Source of the DNA: Acidimicrobiaceae bacterium
GTDB lineage: Bacteria; Actinomycetota; Acidimicrobiia; Acidimicrobiales; JAUTXP01
Assembly (NCBI GenBank): GCA_030837965.1
Contig: JAUTXP010000053.1
Coordinates: forward strand, 16,893 to 80,892
DNA length: 64,000 nucleotides
Reading direction: 5' to 3'
Position numbers and translations under genes: made by a program. How positions within the stretch are numbered: the stretch's first letter is position 1; each line of letters starts with the position of its first letter. The notes beneath the pieces are model-generated. The model was not told where the DNA came from. It made no database searches and saw only the letters and a program-made list of their open reading frames with translations. Shown here in pieces: positions 27,067-51,885 of the stretch.

Positions 27067-27261
27067 ATGGCAGCGGTGTGCGAGGTGTGCGGCAAGCATC
27101 CCTCATTCGGCATGAGCATCAGCCACTCGCATCGGCGCACCAAGCGGCGGTGGAATCCGAACATCCAGCGGATCAGGGCCATCGTGAACGGCGCCCCCAA
27201 GCGCCTGCACGTGTGCACGTCGTGCATCCGCGCGGGCAAGGTCCAGAAGGCCTCCCACTAG
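27067..27261 (+). CDS. rpmB: 50S ribosomal protein L28 (Zn-binding form)
   Basis: [34 protein letters not shown]...[11 protein letters not shown], with GAGGAG RBS. Confidence 0.97.
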
Positions 27262-27273
27262 CAGGCCCCTCCG

Positions 27274-27306
27274 ACTTTTCCACAGCAGCAGGTGCTGTGG
27301 AAAAGT
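27274..27306. repeat. REP-like palindrome, family A, copy 3
   Basis: ACTTTTCCACAGCA-gcagg-TGCTGTGGAAAAGT. The outer pair differs from copies 1-2 but stays complementary. Confidence 0.9.
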
Positions 27307-27313
27307 TGAGATC

Positions 27314-27529
27314 TCAGTCGGGCTCGGGCTGGGCGGTCTCGGCGGGGGCGGTGGCCTCGTCCGACGTGCGGTGCTCCACGTAGGTCGTGGGCGCCGCGTC
27401 CCTGTCCGCTTGACGCTCGTCCGACTCGGCCAGGATGGCCTCGGCTTGGGCCTCGGCGTCGTCGGTGCCCGCCAGCCGTTCTGGATCGGTCAGCTCCTGG
27501 GCCCTGCGGGCCACTCGGTCATCTGCCAT
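27314..27529 (-). CDS. Small acidic hypothetical protein
   Basis: 71 aa, MADDRVARRAQEL...EAQAEAILAESDER...VEHRTS. Confidence 0.6.
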   Translation of the reverse strand: MADDRVARRAQELTDPERLAGTDDAEAQAEAILAESDERQADRDAAPTTYVEHRTSDEATAPAETAQPEPD

Positions 27530-27589
27530 AGGTCTTGATGTCCCCCGAGACGGCGCGTTCCCAACCGGGGTTGTTCCCAGCGGGCTGCG

Positions 27590-27850
27590 TCAGGCAGTGA
27601 CGAGAAGTCGAAGCTCCTCTTCGCCCGAGGCGGTATTGGGCTGGCCCAACACCTCCCAGGACTTCATCTTGACGTGCACGGTTCGCTTCGGACCCGACAA
27701 ATAGAGGCCGATCGCTTCAAGGAGGTTCTCGAGCAACTCGTCCATGTTCTCACCGGAGGCGAAACAGCCCTCCAATTCGACGACCTCGGCCCAAAGGCAG
27801 CCTGGGTCCTCGTTGACACGAACTCGGTATTCGACCTCGCGCCGTCTCAC
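27590..27850 (-). CDS. hicB: HicB-like antitoxin (N-terminal HicB domain only)
   Basis: YRVRVNEDPGCLWAEVVELEGCFASGENMDELLENLLEAIGLYL matches the HicB pattern. Confidence 0.82.
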   Translation of the reverse strand: MRRREVEYRVRVNEDPGCLWAEVVELEGCFASGENMDELLENLLEAIGLYLSGPKRTVHVKMKSWEVLGQPNTASGEEELRLLVTA

Positions 27851-27853
27851 TGC

Positions 27854-28093
27854 CTACCTCTCGTCGGAGCCTGGGCCTCCCTTGAGGCCAGCTTGCCGCA
27901 GAATCCGATCACTCAAGTCGGCACTGTAATCACGGCCGTGATGCTGTGGGAGCGTGATGGGCCGGTGGCCCTCTTTCTCCATCTTCACGGAATGCCGTCC
28001 GCCGAGCGTCCTGACCCAGCCGTATTGCTCAAGCAGTGCCTGCGCTTTGGACTGGGAGAGAATCCGCGGGAGGGCGCGGCGACCTTTTGCCAA
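27854..28093 (-). CDS. hicA: HicA-like mRNA interferase toxin
   Basis: LLEQYGWVRTLGGRHSVKM...ITLPQH...DLSDRILRQAGL. TTG start at 28093 with AGGAG 7 nt upstream. Confidence 0.8.
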   Translation of the reverse strand: MAKGRRALPRILSQSKAQALLEQYGWVRTLGGRHSVKMEKEGHRPITLPQHHGRDYSADLSDRILRQAGLKGGPGSDER

Positions 28094-28282
28094 TACCTCA
28101 CTCCTAATCGTGCTCGGCACCCCCCAGAAGCTGGGCCGCGCCTGATTGGAACTGCGTTCATCGTCGTCCTCCCAGGTGCTATTACGAGCACGCGCCGCGA
28201 CCGTGTCTGGAAACTTGCGCAAAGCCGACAATTGGCGTGTGCGGCGCACTCGGGCGCCGAACATTACGGACGCGATGTGCGC

Positions 28283-29125
28283 TTAAACGGCGCGTTCCCA
28301 ACCGGGGTTGACGGGGCCGATGCCGCCGCCCAGGGTCACGCCCGCGGCGATGGCGTGGTCGATGAACCGCTTGGCCGCCACACACGCGTCGGCGGGCTCC
28401 ATGCCCCGAGCCAACTCGGCCGCGATGGCGGCCGACAGGACGCAGCCCGTCCCATGCGTGTGCCTGCCCTCGATGCGGCGCGACTCAAGCCACACCGGGT
28501 CGCCCCCTGCGGCCAGCAACAGGTCGGGCGACTCGTCGCCGCCCAGGTGCCCGCCCTTCACCAGCACGACCTTGGCTCCGTGGCCGGACAAGGCCCGCGC
28601 CGCCTCCTCCATGGCAGGCCGCCCGTCGATCTCGAAGCCGACCAGGGCCGCGGCCTCGGGCAGGTTGGGCGTGACCACAGTGGCCAGCGGCAGAAGCTCG
28701 GCCCGCAGCGCGCCGACGGCGTCGTCGGCCAACAGCGTGTCGCCGTGCTTCGAGACGAACACCGGGTCGACCACCAGATTCGGCACGCCGAAGTCGCGCA
28801 CGGCTGCGGCCACGGCCGACACCAGCGTGGCCGAAGCCAGCATCCCCGTCTTGGCCGCGTCCACGCCGATGTCGGTGACGACCGAGTCGATCTGGCGACG
28901 CACCAATTCGGGCGACAGGGCGTCGAACCCCTGCACGCCCAACGTGTTCTGGGCCGTCACCGCAACCAGCGCGCACGTGCCCCATACGCCGTGGGCCTCG
29001 AACGTCTTGAGGTCGGCGACGACGCCTGCGCCGCCGCCGGAGTCCGACCCCGCGATGGTCAGGGCCACCGGCGGCCTGGGCGACGAAGCAGACCCCAAAG
29101 ACGTCGACCGGTCGGTCAGGCCCAC
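28283..29125 (-). CDS. thiD: Hydroxymethylpyrimidine/phosphomethylpyrimidine kinase
   Basis: [48 protein letters not shown]. Start GTG 29125 (alternative TTG 29098). Confidence 0.95.
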
Positions 29126-47811: not shown

Positions 47812-49337
47812 AGCTCCTGCTTGCGCAGCTCGGCTTTGAGGATCTTGCCCGTGCCGCCCTTGGGCAGGTCGGGCAGGAAGTCGACGCGCTTGGGCGCTTT
47901 GAAATGGGCCAGACGGTCGCGCACGAACTTGATCAGCTCCCGCTCCGTCACCGGCCCCGCGCCGGGTCGCAGCGACACGAACGCCCGCGGCACTTCGCCC
48001 CAGCGCTCGTCGGCCATGCCCACGACCGCGACCTCGTAGACGGCGGGGTGGGCGGCGAGGACCGACTCGACCTGCACGGACGACACGTTCTCGCCGCCGC
48101 TGATGATGATGTCCTTCTTGCGGTCGACGATGGTCACGTAGCCCTCGGCATCGACGGTGGCCAGGTCGCCCGTGCGCAGCCAGCCGCCGCGCAGAGCGGC
48201 GTCGGACTCCTCTGGCTTCTTCCAATAGCCCGCCATGACGTGGTTGGAGCGCACGCATATCTCCCCCACCTGGTGGCCGTCCCACGCCACCTCGACGTCG
48301 TCGTCGTCGAACACGCGCAGGTCCACTCCCACGTTGGGCAGGCCGGTGGTGGCGTTGCGCAGACGCCGCTCTTCCACGGGCAATTCGTCGTGCGAGCGCA
48401 AGGTGACGGCCTTGGTCAACTGCGGGCTGGCCTCGGTCAGCCCGTAGCCGCACATGACCTCGCAGCCGAACAAGTCCTCCAGCTCACGCAGCAGGTCGGG
48501 CGGCGACGCCGCGCCCCCCAGCGTCACCTGCACCAGCGACGACGTGTCGCGCCGCTTCACGTCCGGGTGCACGGCGATGGCCGCGGCCATGGTGGGCACC
48601 AGCGACAGCCGGGTCACGCCCTCCTGCTCGACCAGCCGCAGCACCTCGGCCGCGTCGAACTTCTCGATGAGGACGTGCCGCGCCCCGAGGGCGGTGACGT
48701 AGTGCGGCGTGCCCCATCCGTTCACGTGGAAGAGGGCGATGGTGTGGAGGATGACGTCGCGATGGGTGAGACCCAGCGTGAGCGCGCTGTCCACCGCGTG
48801 GGTGGCCAAGGCCCGATGGGTGAGCATGGCCCCCTTGGGCGTTGACGTGGTGCCGCTCGTGTAGAAGATCTCGCACACGTCGTCCTCGCCGAACGGATCG
48901 GGCTCGAACAGCGCGTCCGGCTGGGAGGCGAGCATCTCCTCGTAGCCCGAGTCGAGGTCGAGCCGACGGCGGGGCAGCAGGTCCTCGGCCGCCTCTGCGA
49001 ACGACGGGTGCACGAACAGGATGGACGCGTGGCAGTCGCGCAGGATGTCCTGCATCTCGGCCGGCCCCAGTCGCACGTTCAGCGGGACGAGGATGGCGCC
49101 CGCCATGACCACGCCGTAGTACGCCTCCAGCAGCTCCAGCGTGTTGCCGCACAGGTAGGCCACTCGCTGTCCGGGCTTGATGCCGAGGTCGGACCGCAAG
49201 GCGTGGGCCAGGCGGTGGCAGCGAGAGGCGTACTCCCGGTAACACAAGCGCCGGTTACCGTCGGTAACACCAAGCAGCTCTCCGTACAGGCGGCGGGCGC
49301 GCTCCAAGAAGTCGAGGGGCGTGAGAGGGACGTTCAC
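47808..49337 (-). CDS. Acyl-CoA synthetase / AMP-binding enzyme
   Basis: YTSGTTSTPKG, GYGLTE, WLRTGD, DRKKDIIISGGEN, HFKAPK, GKILK. GTG 49337. Confidence 0.93.
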   Translation of the reverse strand: MNVPLTPLDFLERARRLYGELLGVTDGNRRLCYREYASRCHRLAHALRSDLGIKPGQRVAYLCGNTLELLEAYYGVVMAGAILVPLNVRLGPAEMQDILRDCHASILFVHPSFAEAAEDLLPRRRLDLDSGYEEMLASQPDALFEPDPFGEDDVCEIFYTSGTTSTPKGAMLTHRALATHAVDSALTLGLTHRDVILHTIALFHVNGWGTPHYVTALGARHVLIEKFDAAEVLRLVEQEGVTRLSLVPTMAAAIAVHPDVKRRDTSSLVQVTLGGAASPPDLLRELEDLFGCEVMCGYGLTEASPQLTKAVTLRSHDELPVEERRLRNATTGLPNVGVDLRVFDDDDVEVAWDGHQVGEICVRSNHVMAGYWKKPEESDAALRGGWLRTGDLATVDAEGYVTIVDRKKDIIISGGENVSSVQVESVLAAHPAVYEVAVVGMADERWGEVPRAFVSLRPGAGPVTERELIKFVRDRLAHFKAPKRVDFLPDLPKGGTGKILKAELRKQEL

Positions 49338-50742: not shown

Positions 50743-51885
50743 CTAGCGGATGGCCCCGGTCTCGCGCAGCTTGGCCACCTCGCCCGCGGGGATGCCCCAG
50801 TCGGCCAAGGCCTCGTCGGTGTGCTGCCCCGGCTGCGCGGGCGGGCGCGCAATGGCGCCGGGGGTGCGGCTGAAGCGGGGCGCGGGCGCGGGCTGCACGA
50901 CGCCGGCCACGTCCACGAACGTCTGGCGGGCCACGTTGTGCGGGTGCTGCGGGGCCTCGGCCAGCGACAGCACGGGGGCGAAGCACACGTCCGTGTGCTC
51001 CATCAACGCGCACCACTCGTCACGCGTGCGCTGGGCGAAGACGGCGGCCAGCTTCTCCTTGAGGCCCGGCCAGGCCGAGCCGTCCATCTGCGCGTCCCAC
51101 TCGTCGGCGTCGAGGCCCGCCAGCCTGCGCAGCTCGGCGTAGAACTGCGGCTCGATGGACCCGATGGAGACGTACTCGCCGTCCGCGCACTGATAGACGT
51201 CGTAGAAGTGGGCGCCGGTGTCGAGCAGGTTGGTGCCCCGCTCCTCGGTCCACATGCCGATGCCCATCATCGAGTGGAACATGGTGGTCAGGCTGGCGGC
51301 GCCGTCGACCATGGCGGCGTCGACCACCTGGCCCTGGCCCGAGCGGCCCGCCTCGACCAGGGCGGCGGCGATGCCGAAGGCGAGGTAGAGGGCGCCGCCG
51401 CCGAAGTCGCCCACCAGGTTCAAGGGGGGCACCGGTGCCTGGCCCGCCCGGCCGATGGGATGGAGGGCGCCCGCCAAGGCGATGTAGTTGATGTCGTGGC
51501 CCGCGGCCTGGGCATAGGGGCCGTCCTGGCCCCAGCCCGTCATGCGGCCGTAGACCAGTCGGGGGTTGCGGGCCAGGCAGTCGTCGGGGCCGAGGCCGAG
51601 CCGTTCGGTCACGCCGGGCCGGAACCCCTCGATGAGGGCGTCGGCCTGCTCGACCAGCCGCAGCACCGTCTCCACGCCCTCGGGGTTCTTGAGGTCGACG
51701 CCGATGGAGCGGCGGCTGCGGTTGAGGATGTCCCAGTGGGGCCGGTCGTGCTGGCCGGAGACGAGCGAGGACCGCTCGACGCGCACGATGTCGGCGCCCA
51801 GGTCGGCGAGGAGCATGGCGGCGAAGGGGCCGGGGCCGATGCCTGCCAGCTCGACGATGCGTATGCCGGTGAGAGGACCGCTCAT
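50743..51885 (-). CDS. CaiB/BaiF family III CoA-transferase (alpha-methylacyl-CoA racemase-like)
   Basis: [50 protein letters not shown]. Confidence 0.92.

What the first reader, a model, noticed from the sequence alone, without database searches (positions are those of the whole stretch)
27550..28310. hicAB-only mini-island integrated into the thiD 3' end via a 24-bp att-like repeat
Seen: ACGGCGCGTTCCCAACCGGGGTTG occurs at 27550-27573 and 28287-28310, bracketing 713 bp that contain only hicA, hicB and their upstream region. The right copy encodes the last thiD codons (NPGWERAV*). Reading the thiD frame through the left copy gives [17 protein letters not shown], whose stop overlaps the start of the 71-aa gene, as expected for the pre-insertion operon. 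Established: integrative elements often regenerate a target gene's 3' end. Inference: this is the remnant of a site-specific element targeting thiD, or a TA cassette mobilised in trans. It shortened ThiD and placed the downstream gene behind hicAB.
Basis: partly seen in the sequence, partly recalled or inferred. Interest (0 to 1): 0.66.

Follow-up and report, generated by a model that had tools for sequence, protein, structure and literature searches.

The report
hicAB insertion with 24-bp target duplication
A small foreign toxin-antitoxin gene pair (hicAB) was inserted at the very end of the thiamine gene thiD in an uncultured Acidimicrobiia bacterium and copied 24 bases of the target to both sides. 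The insertion is real, but nothing points to a thiD-specific integrase, and it fits a rare, poorly understood insertion mode already described for restriction-modification genes.

Summary
ACGGCGCGTTCCCAACCGGGGTTG occurs exactly twice in the window and in the whole 3.5-Mb genome. The two copies bracket 713 bp that hold only hicA, hicB and about 190 bp upstream of hicA.

It is a true insertion:
- Four relatives (ThiD 80-89% identical) keep the order thiL-thiD-small gene-rpmB, with one copy of the repeat sequence and no hicAB.
- A 97.6%-identical sister population from another metagenome carries the same insert with both repeats intact. So it is not an assembly artefact, and it predates that split.

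The "att site of a thiD-targeting element" reading is not supported:
- There is no recombinase in or near the insert.
- I found one tyrosine-recombinase hit in the genome.
- The 24-mer, or a degenerate coding version of it, is never duplicated in the public collections searched, and neither was found in the viral set.
- Homologous hicAB pairs elsewhere sit in unrelated places without flanking repeats.
- The insert has no terminal inverted repeats.

The same genome holds a second validated case: a PIN/HTH pair with a different 20-bp duplication at another gene's 3' end.

Best reading: insertion with long target duplication (Nobusato 2000; Furuta 2010), here with toxin-antitoxin cargo. The mechanism remains inferred. 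The ThiD truncation falls within the natural variation of the tail. Interest is moderate.

The parts
28287..28310 (.). Right (thiD-proximal) copy of the 24-bp direct repeat. It encodes the last thiD codons (N P G W E R A and two bases of V).
27550..27573 (.). Left (distal) copy of the 24-bp direct repeat. It continues into the ancestral thiD tail and small-gene junction.
27574..28286 (-). Inserted segment of 713 bp, G+C 0.617. It is absent from four relatives and present in a 97.6%-identical sister population.
27854..28093 (-). hicA toxin gene, 79 aa from TTG 28093 behind AGGAG. The ORF stays open upstream to ATG 28264 (136 aa), but homologues are 63-79 aa.
27590..27850 (-). hicB antitoxin gene, 86 aa. 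It has only the HicB/UPF0150-like N-terminal domain and no DNA-binding domain.
28094..28286 (-). The 193 bp of the insert upstream of hicA (presumed promoter and leader). Its first bases supply the third base of thiD's last Val codon and the TAA stop. It shows no substitution against the sister population.
28283..29068 (-). thiD (hydroxymethylpyrimidine/phosphomethylpyrimidine kinase), 261 aa as called in the public collection. The ORF is open to 29194. The protein now ends ...PGWERAV.
27530..27549 (-). Remnant of the pre-insertion thiD tail and junction (…SGDIKTY…), no longer translated as part of ThiD. It now lies just upstream of the small gene's ATG.
27314..27529 (-). Conserved 71-aa acidic protein gene with no Pfam match. 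It is the ancestral immediate downstream neighbour of thiD and now follows hicB by 60 nt.
27067..27261 (+). rpmB (ribosomal protein L28), convergent neighbour. It served as the anchor to find the sister population.

Best explanation
A horizontally acquired type II toxin-antitoxin operon was inserted at the thiD/small-gene junction. The operon encodes HicA, a small RNase-type toxin of about 79 aa, followed by a short HicB antitoxin of 86 aa, with about 190 bp of its own upstream DNA.

The insertion happened in the common ancestor of at least two Acidimicrobiia populations that are now 2.4% diverged. It duplicated 24 bp of the target, the last eight thiD codons. The thiD-proximal copy keeps the reading frame and runs into a TAA supplied by the insert. 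The distal copy stays attached to the old thiD tail and the small gene.

The repeat is a target duplication made from host sequence. It is not the core of a thiD-specific attachment site, and the cassette has no recombinase of its own. [quoted passage not shown]

What is shown:
- the insertion itself;
- the host origin and uniqueness of the repeat;
- the lack of mobility genes and of terminal inverted repeats;
- a second event of the same kind in the same genome.

What is inferred:
- the molecular route, most likely capture of foreign DNA at a staggered double-strand break or a replication template switch, with fill-in by host enzymes;
- that hicAB acts as an addiction or defence module that favours its own retention.
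For: - The repeat is exact, beyond chance, and found only twice in the genome.
- Four relatives show the empty site with conserved synteny PEPCK-thiL-thiD-small gene-rpmB-DAK2-recG and one copy of the repeat sequence.
- The sister contig L061 (another metagenome, 97.6% identical over 5459 bp) has the same insert and both repeats. There are 8 substitutions in hicAB, of which 3 change residues, so the genes are kept.
- HicA matches Pfam above the cut-off and PDB 5yrz at 2.9e-7. The HicB family profile matches TTHA1756, TTHA0281 and HicB 6g1c.
- The flanks are core genes with no recombinase. The genome gives one PF00589 hit and one partial rve hit, both on other contigs.
- The insert has no terminal inverted repeats (p = 0.3).
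- The 24-mer is absent from other genomes and metagenomes. The degenerate version is never duplicated and was not found in viral contigs.
- The insert DNA is absent from the plasmid and phage collections.
- Second case, G000:C25:69438/70719: a different 20-bp host-derived repeat at the 3' end of a conserved 259-aa gene. The 1261-bp insert has G+C 0.628 against 0.731, holds a PIN/HTH_17 pair, and the site is empty in G001 and G002.
- Published precedent: PMC2853133 describes such insertions with no mobility genes, low-G+C inserts and repeats that overlap gene 3' ends.
Against: - 24 bp lies below the 30-bp threshold that Furuta et al. used precisely to exclude site-specific events. It lies within the range of att identity segments at gene 3' ends.
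- The repeat shows partial similarity for 13 more nt on one side (8 of 13). A pure target duplication does not predict this.
- No pre-insertion allele from a near-identical strain is available, so the exact target and the exactness of the duplication are inferred from relatives only about 80% identical in DNA.
- MAGs lose IS elements and integrative elements in assembly, so the absence of recombinases is weak evidence.
- No mechanism for this insertion mode has been shown experimentally in any organism.
Confidence: 0.6

Rival explanations
1. This is a site-specific integration. The 24-mer is the identity core of attL and attR of an integrative element that targets the thiD 3' end. The element would since have been reduced to its TA cargo, or would be a cis-mobilisable cassette moved by an integrase encoded elsewhere.
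For: Integration into gene 3' ends with 20-60-bp identity segments that rebuild the gene end is typical of tyrosine-integrase elements (general knowledge). The repeat length is 24 bp and the gene end is regenerated. There is partial similarity of 8 of 13 nt beyond the repeat.
Against: - There is no integrase in or near the insert, and the genome gives only one tyrosine-recombinase hit.
- The 24-mer is unknown elsewhere.
- No genome among 185,579 species has the NPGWERAV-coding segment twice, and no viral contig has it.
- Sixteen other genomes of the order that carry the motif have it once. That pattern reached 5 nt beyond the repeat, so the test is weak.
- hicAB homologues are never at thiD and never repeat-flanked.
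- Both copies are 24/24 identical to the host's own codons, although relatives differ at 2-5 of these positions.
- A second island uses an unrelated host-derived repeat.
Confidence: 0.2
2. This is a non-autonomous transposon mobilised by a transposase that makes unusually long target-site duplications, as IS1630 does (19-26 bp).
For: The duplication lengths of 24 and 20 bp in the two islands fall within the 19-26 bp cited for IS1630 in PMC2853133. The PIN/HTH island has a possible imperfect terminal inverted repeat of about 55 bp (p = 0.002).
Against: The hicAB insert has no terminal inverted repeats (p = 0.3), and the ends of the three islands share nothing. The insert is single-copy in the genome. 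Only one partial rve-domain hit exists in the genome. Only the rve family was searched; no other transposase family was.
Confidence: 0.07
3. The locus was imported by recombination from a relative: homology in thiD on one side and an illegitimate joint on the other (homology-facilitated illegitimate recombination). The repeat would then be a by-product of where the illegitimate joint fell.
For: The first 57 residues of the long hicA ORF align weakly with the small downstream protein: both start M...RV.RR..L, with 27% identity. TAAGCGCACAT after the right copy resembles the TAAAGCGCCAT junction of relative L047 (read by eye).
Against: The similarity is not significant. Shuffle p is 0.04-0.15 at the protein level and 0.3-0.9 at the DNA level. 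A donor whose small gene is this diverged would not share 24/24 nt of thiD, given that relatives with a 68-79% identical small protein (59.6% for the nearest by tblastn) already differ at 2-5 of the 24 positions.
Confidence: 0.08
4. The structure is an assembly artefact: a chimeric loop in the assembly graph of a metagenome-assembled genome.
For: The genome is a MAG of 88 contigs, and the insert has deviant G+C.
Against: An independent assembly from another sample (L061) has the same structure with 2.4% divergence, spread over flanks and insert alike.
Confidence: 0.01

Closest known systems
[quoted passage not shown] 2000, Gene 259:99; Furuta, Abe and Kobayashi 2010, PMC2853133)
   Same: A small addiction-type gene unit with lower G+C than its host is inserted without any mobility gene. 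It is flanked by direct repeats that are a single copy in the empty site of relatives and unique in the genome. The repeat can overlap the 3' end of the neighbouring gene, and the repeat sequence differs from event to event (here).
   Different: The cargo is a type II toxin-antitoxin pair, not an RM system. The duplications are 24 and 20 bp, below the authors' 30-bp working threshold and far below the 46 to about 420 bp they list. The DNA-breakage role they suggest for restriction enzymes cannot apply to an RNase toxin.
Integrative elements and cis-mobilisable elements (CIMEs) that integrate into the 3' ends of protein genes or tRNA genes through tyrosine integrases (general knowledge, not tested against a named record)
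   Same: Direct repeats of about 20-60 bp flank the element, the target gene's 3' end is rebuilt, and the cargo often includes TA modules.
   Different: There is no integrase, relaxase or excisionase in or near the insert. The core does not recur elsewhere, and no other genome has this site occupied.
HicAB type II toxin-antitoxin systems (Streptococcus pneumoniae HicA, PDB 5yrz; Burkholderia pseudomallei HicAB, PDB 6g1c/6g1n)
   Same: The toxin gene comes first and the antitoxin second, 3 nt apart. The HicA domain is recognised by Pfam and by PDB sequence match. The HicB N-terminal domain is of the HicB/UPF0150 type.
   Different: HicB is only 86 aa and has no RHH or HTH DNA-binding domain. 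In this it resembles the stand-alone UPF0150 proteins TTHA1756 and TTHA0281, so autoregulation, if any, must work otherwise. Activity is untested.
ParE/ParD-like TA module of Microcystis aeruginosa PCC 7806 fenced by two identical 152-bp direct repeats (PMC7935541)
   Same: A TA pair lies directly downstream of a host gene and is bracketed by identical direct repeats.
   Different: Those repeats are 152 bp, lie in intergenic DNA and contain inverted repeats. No empty-site comparison was found in the passages I read.
IS1630 of Mycoplasma (IS30 family), which makes 19-26-bp target duplications (as cited in PMC2853133)
   Same: The duplication length range covers the 20 and 24 bp seen here.
   Different: It is an autonomous IS with a transposase and terminal inverted repeats. 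The hicAB insert has neither.

Membership tests
HicAB type II toxin-antitoxin | Toxin has a HicA domain | tested here: met
   PF07927 at E 1.6e-6, 28.5 bits against a cut-off of 27. The whole-genome family scan gave 30.1 bits. PDB 5yrz HicA matches at 2.9e-7. Homologues named HicA reach up to 74% identity.
HicAB type II toxin-antitoxin | hicA lies immediately upstream of hicB in one operon | tested here: met
   The hicA stop is at 27854-27856 and the hicB start at 27850, on the same strand. The same order is seen in every homologous locus examined.
HicAB type II toxin-antitoxin | Antitoxin has the HicB N-terminal (partial RNase H-like / UPF0150) domain | tested here: met
   The single sequence scores below the Pfam cut-offs (22.1 and 18.7 bits). 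Its homologues carry PF15919 or PF21748. The family profile hits TTHA1756 at 3.2e-4, TTHA0281 at 4.1e-4 and HicB 6g1c at 2.2e-3.
HicAB type II toxin-antitoxin | HicB C-terminal DNA-binding domain (RHH or HTH) for autoregulation | tested here: not met
   The protein is 86 aa, and the alignment of 10 family members shows only the N-terminal domain plus a short variable tail. No DNA-binding family was hit. Short HicB-like antitoxins are common, so this lowers 'canonical' rather than 'HicAB'.
HicAB type II toxin-antitoxin | Catalytic His of HicA; toxicity and neutralisation | not testable with these tools
   A His stands in the GGRHS motif next to the GSH of 5yrz in the alignment, but it is offset by one position. 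Activity needs expression tests.
Insertion with long target duplication (Nobusato/Furuta) | Relatives show an empty site with one copy of the repeated sequence | tested here: met
   L004/L047/L048, L046 and L049.
Insertion with long target duplication (Nobusato/Furuta) | No mobility gene in or beside the insert; the repeat is unique in the genome | tested here: met
   The insert holds only hicAB. The flanks are core genes in conserved order. The repeat occurs only twice in the genome.
Insertion with long target duplication (Nobusato/Furuta) | Duplication longer than 30 bp (the authors' operational threshold) | tested here: not met
   24 bp are exact, or 37 bp if the imperfect extension is counted. 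The threshold was a filter against site-specific events, not a mechanistic criterion.
Insertion with long target duplication (Nobusato/Furuta) | Repeat sequence and length vary between events (not one att core) | tested here: met
   The second validated event in the same genome has an unrelated 20-bp repeat. A third TA pair lies between 40-bp exact repeats (about 60 bp if imperfect matches are counted) inside a mobile element.
Site-specific integrative element / CIME | Cognate integrase in the element or the genome, with the att core recurring at the same target in other genomes | tested here: not met
Site-specific integrative element / CIME | Excision to a circle that joins the insert ends over one core | not testable with these tools
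DNA transposon / MITE | Terminal inverted repeats and multiple copies | tested here: not met
   There are no inverted repeats at the ends (p = 0.3), and the insert is single-copy in the genome.

The most novel reading that the evidence does not exclude
Toxin-antitoxin modules may enter genomes by a general route that needs no recombinase and is run by the host. This route would duplicate some 20 to 150 bp of the target, the same little-understood route seen for restriction-modification units. This Acidimicrobiia genome would record at least two independent events (hicAB at thiD, PIN/HTH at another gene end) at the short end of the length range. The flanking repeats would later allow loss, amplification or circle formation by recombination between them. 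The complete lack of substitutions in the non-coding parts of the island against a 2.4%-diverged sister could then reflect cis-acting sequences.
Probability: 0.3. Interest if true: 0.65.

Novelty: new member of a known kind. Interest (0 to 1): 0.4.

Why it matters
How chromosomal toxin-antitoxin modules move is still largely unexplained. They are plainly transferred horizontally, yet most sit alone, without a transposase or integrase.

This is a clean case: the empty site, the occupied site in two diverged populations, a host-derived flanking duplication, and a second event of the same type in the same genome. It gives concrete material for testing whether the 'long target duplication' route known for restriction-modification systems also serves TA modules. 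It also bears on how short the duplication can be.

For annotation, it shows that a 24-bp repeat at a gene's 3' end need not mark an integrase site. For the organism, the consequences look mild. ThiD loses a few residues of a variable tail, and the small downstream gene is now separated from thiD by hicAB.

Tried and rejected
- I asked whether the 193 bp upstream of hicA, or the first 57 residues of the 136-aa ORF, are a diverged copy of the thiD-end and small-gene region. The alignment looked suggestive, but shuffles give p 0.04-0.15 for protein and 0.3-0.9 for DNA, and the idea conflicts with the 24/24 identity of the repeat. Rejected.
- Terminal inverted repeats in the insert, and shared ends among the three islands: none for hicAB.
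- Rfam families, sigma-70-type promoters or terminators, and RNA structure in the insert: no match, no promoter, one chance-level terminator-like site inside hicA on the other strand, z = -0.55.
- Other copies of the insert in the genome: none.
- Insert DNA in the plasmid and phage collections: none.
- HicB relatives in metagenome contigs: none.
- The 24-mer in genome contigs and metagenome contigs: none.
- The degenerate repeat pattern in viral contigs: none. In species genomes: 17 single matches and no duplicate.
- A 23-nt pattern over 401 genomes of the order gave single copies only. That pattern reached 5 nt upstream of the repeat and so could not have seen a 24-bp duplication. The test is weak.
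- Flanking repeats around 12 homologous hicAB loci: only short or imperfect matches, none convincing, and none bracketing the pair in the way seen here.
- The second hicA in the genome (C24:73561) has no flanking repeat.
- The exact-protein look-up of the PIN/HTH island's HTH protein, meant to find the sister population's allele, is not on record. The first try had wrong coordinates.
- dif/Xer-type and integron attC-type sites were considered by eye. The 24-mer has only a 5+5 palindrome (CAACC..GGTTG) and no attC or dif architecture. Not pursued.
Full report
**Observation.** The 24-mer ACGGCGCGTTCCCAACCGGGGTTG stands at 27550-27573 and 28287-28310, exactly as reported. None of 100 dinucleotide-preserving shuffles gave a match, and with up to three mismatches these are the only two copies in the 3.55-Mb, 88-contig genome. 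The 713 bp between them (27574-28286) hold, on the minus strand:
- hicA, ORF 27854-28264 (Pfam HicA_toxin, 28.5 bits against a cut-off of 27);
- hicB, 27590-27850 (86 aa, weak UPF0150 and HicB-like matches);
- about 190 bp upstream of hicA.

thiD lies on the minus strand directly to the right (Phos_pyr_kin, E 3.6e-88). The right repeat copy encodes N-P-G-W-E-R-A and two bases of the final Val. The last base of that codon and the TAA stop belong to the insert. Reading through the left copy gives ...[17 protein letters not shown], which overlaps the ATG of a 71-aa gene by 11 nt. The insert has G+C 0.617, against 0.70-0.745 in the flanks.

**Gene details.** HicA homologues in the public protein collection are 63-79 aa, with the best at 74% identity (Microbispora). 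The only 136-aa form is that of the sister population. The real start is therefore most likely the TTG at 28093, 7 nt behind AGGAG, which gives 79 aa. HicA matches the solved Streptococcus pneumoniae HicA (5yrz, 2.9e-7). A profile of ten HicB relatives matches TTHA1756, TTHA0281 and Burkholderia HicB (3e-4 to 4e-3). This HicB family has only the N-terminal domain and no DNA-binding domain.

**It is an insertion.** In the nearest species-level relatives the order is PEPCK, small gene, thiL, thiD, small acidic gene, rpmB (convergent), DAK2/FakA-like, recG. thiD is followed 6 nt later by the small gene, and there is no hicAB. These relatives are G002 (L004, L047, L048), L046 and L049, with ThiD 80-89% identical. 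Base by base, the relatives run straight from the thiD body through one copy of the repeat sequence (2-5 differences in 24) into ...CTCGGGCACGTAA... and the small gene's ATG. That is the sequence obtained when the window's insert and one repeat copy are removed.

**It is not an assembly artefact, and it is not brand new.** Looking up the identical L28 protein found a contig from another metagenome (L061, JGI 3300044704). It is 97.6% identical to the window over 5459 bp and has the same insert with both repeats intact. The 129 differences (128 mismatches and one gap) are spread over recG, DAK2, thiD and hicAB. hicA and hicB carry 8 substitutions and 3 residue changes, so the pair has been kept since before these populations split. 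The non-coding parts of the island show no substitution at all: the 193 bp upstream of hicA, both repeats, and the 36 bp around the left repeat. At 2.4% divergence, about 6-7 would be expected. I cannot explain this. No promoter consensus, Rfam family or unusual fold was found there.

**What the ThiD change amounts to.** The four closest ThiD proteins end RAVTGT, RSLSGT, RAVSGT and RAVSGTPHP, so this ThiD has lost at least three residues. Among 120 orthologues, however, the tail after PGWER varies freely. Many end two residues after ER, and one ends at ERAV. The truncation is within natural variation. The tail that the left copy would give (SGDIKTYGR) occurs in no relative. Relatives have a TAA where the window has TCA, so I cannot tell whether the stop was lost before or after the insertion.

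**Is the repeat an attachment site?** I found nothing in favour beyond its length and its position at a gene end.
- The flanks are core genes. The genome gives a single Phage_integrase-family hit and one partial rve hit, both on other contigs.
- The 24-mer is absent from 32 million genome contigs and 241 million metagenome records.
- A degenerate pattern lying wholly within the repeat, which would code NPGWERAV in any synonymous form, matches 17 contigs among 185,579 species genomes. Each has it once, and it was not found in viral contigs.
- The insert DNA has no match in the plasmid or phage collections.
- Twelve loci with homologous hicAB pairs lie in unrelated contexts: a Microbispora chromosome, a prophage-like region, next to cas3, next to a primase, and in Thermoleophilia MAGs. 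None is at thiD, and none is bracketed by a convincing repeat.
- In all of these loci hicAB has G+C 0.59-0.63 in hosts of mostly 0.65-0.72. The low G+C is thus a family trait, not a clock.
- Both repeat copies are 24/24 identical to this host's own codons, whereas relatives already differ at 2-5 positions. This is what a duplication of host sequence predicts. An att core would need a conspecific donor to give the same result.
- The thiD-rpmB junction is simply a permissive convergent junction. Across the order it ranges from a 7-nt overlap to 1123 bp and holds unrelated accessory genes.

**A second event of the same kind in the same genome.** I scanned the whole genome for isolated exact direct repeats. 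This turned up C25:69438 and 70719, a 20-bp repeat (CCGCCACCGCGGCCTGGCTC). Its left copy is the 3' end of a conserved 259-aa gene. It brackets 1261 bp of G+C 0.628 (flanks 0.731) that hold a PIN-like gene and an HTH_17 gene. Removing the insert and one copy gives a sequence colinear with both family relatives, G002 and G001. Here too the insert supplies a stop three codons after the gene-proximal copy. The two repeats and the ends of the two inserts share nothing.

A third TA pair (RHH/Doc) lies between 40-bp exact repeats, about 60 bp if imperfect matches are counted. It sits next to a Replic_Relax gene and a Phd/PIN pair. Because it lies inside a mobile element, I could not test an empty site.

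**Comparison with what is known.** Furuta, Abe and Kobayashi (PMC2853133), following Nobusato et al. [quoted passage not shown] These cases have no mobility genes, low-G+C inserts and repeats unique in the genome. In Haemophilus the repeats overlap the 3' end of the neighbouring gene. The lengths run from 46 to about 420 bp. One case is in the actinobacterium Clavibacter. The mechanism is unknown.

The present case fits on every structural point except two:
- the authors' 30-bp filter, which they set to keep site-specific events out;
- the cargo, which here is a TA pair.

In the library searched, seven papers hold both 'long target duplication' and 'toxin-antitoxin'. Judging by their titles and abstracts and by the two I opened, none describes the mode for a type II TA pair. 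A Microcystis TA pair fenced by 152-bp identical repeats has been reported.

Earlier notes of this scan list several TA cassettes with 34-153-bp target duplications in other phyla. These are unchecked leads. They agree with this reading but are not independent evidence.

**Verdict.** The 'thiD-targeting att site' reading is not supported. My confidence that this is a plain insertion is about 0.95.

The best explanation, at about 0.6, is a recombinase-free insertion with a target duplication. The molecular route is inferred, not shown; I suggest a staggered break or a template switch with fill-in. A site-specific event in trans keeps about 0.2.

This is a new member of a known but obscure kind of event and is of moderate interest. 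Its value lies in the clean pair of events in one genome and in the short duplication lengths.

Noticed in passing
G000:C25:69438-70738 (outside the window; locus L052 2939-4239): A second TA-like island. A 20-bp exact direct repeat at the 3' end of a conserved 259-aa gene brackets 1261 bp of low G+C holding a PIN-like gene and a convergent HTH_17 gene. The site is empty in G001 and G002. The island has possible imperfect terminal inverted repeats of about 55 bp (p = 0.002).
   Followed up: yes
G000:C80:89104-89954 (locus L050 3105-3955): An RHH/Doc toxin-antitoxin pair lies between 40-bp exact direct repeats (about 60 bp if imperfect matches are counted). A Replic_Relax gene is on one side and a Phd/PIN pair on the other, so each TA operon is preceded by the same leader sequence.
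   Followed up: partly
window 27274-27306: A perfect 14+14 palindrome, ACTTTTCCACAGCA(gcagg)TGCTGTGGAAAAGT, lies between rpmB and the small gene. The same palindrome is scattered over many contigs of the genome (at least 20 pairs in the repeat scan), usually between convergent genes, which makes it REP-like or a bidirectional terminator.
   Followed up: partly
window 28094-28310 and 27530-27589: The non-coding parts of the island and both repeats show no substitution against the 97.6%-identical sister contig L061, where about 6-7 would be expected. hicA, hicB and thiD each carry 1.2-2.3% differences. This is unexplained: no promoter consensus, Rfam match or stable fold was found.
   Followed up: partly
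window 27537-27549 and 28274-28286: The 24-bp repeat extends imperfectly for 13 nt on one side (GATGTCCCCCGAG against GATGTGCGCTTAA, 8 of 13 matches, including GATGT). This is a marginal excess over chance, and a pure target duplication does not predict it.
   Followed up: partly
window 27314-27529: A conserved small acidic protein (56-71 aa, consensus M.D.RVARRA.EL...AILAESDERQ...VEHRTSDE) always follows thiD in this family and has no Pfam match. Its function is unknown.
   Followed up: no
G000:C75:2844-5284: A 34-bp exact repeat (about 48 bp with one indel) brackets a 796-aa membrane-protein gene. It duplicates the ribosome-binding site, the start codon and the first 11 or so codons of the next gene. 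This may be another insertion with target duplication, carrying non-TA cargo.
   Followed up: no
loci L005, L006, L008, L009, L022 (thiD-rpmB junction in relatives): The convergent thiD-rpmB junction ranges from a 7-nt overlap to 1123 bp across the order. In different lineages it holds unrelated accessory genes, by eye an H-NOX-like protein, a luciferase-like monooxygenase and a kinase-like protein. It is a permissive insertion spot.
   Followed up: partly
window 48623-48645 and 51645-51667: A 23-bp exact direct repeat (CCTGCTCGACCAGCCGCAGCACC) occurs 3022 bp apart, with no G+C contrast. It is probably chance or paralogy and was not examined.
   Followed up: no
locus L041 2127-2206 and 2834-2939: In an uncultured actinomycete MAG, a diverged repeat of about 80-100 bp brackets a low-G+C ORF directly upstream of a homologous hicAB pair, downstream of an Rrf2-like regulator. 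Its meaning is unclear.
   Followed up: no
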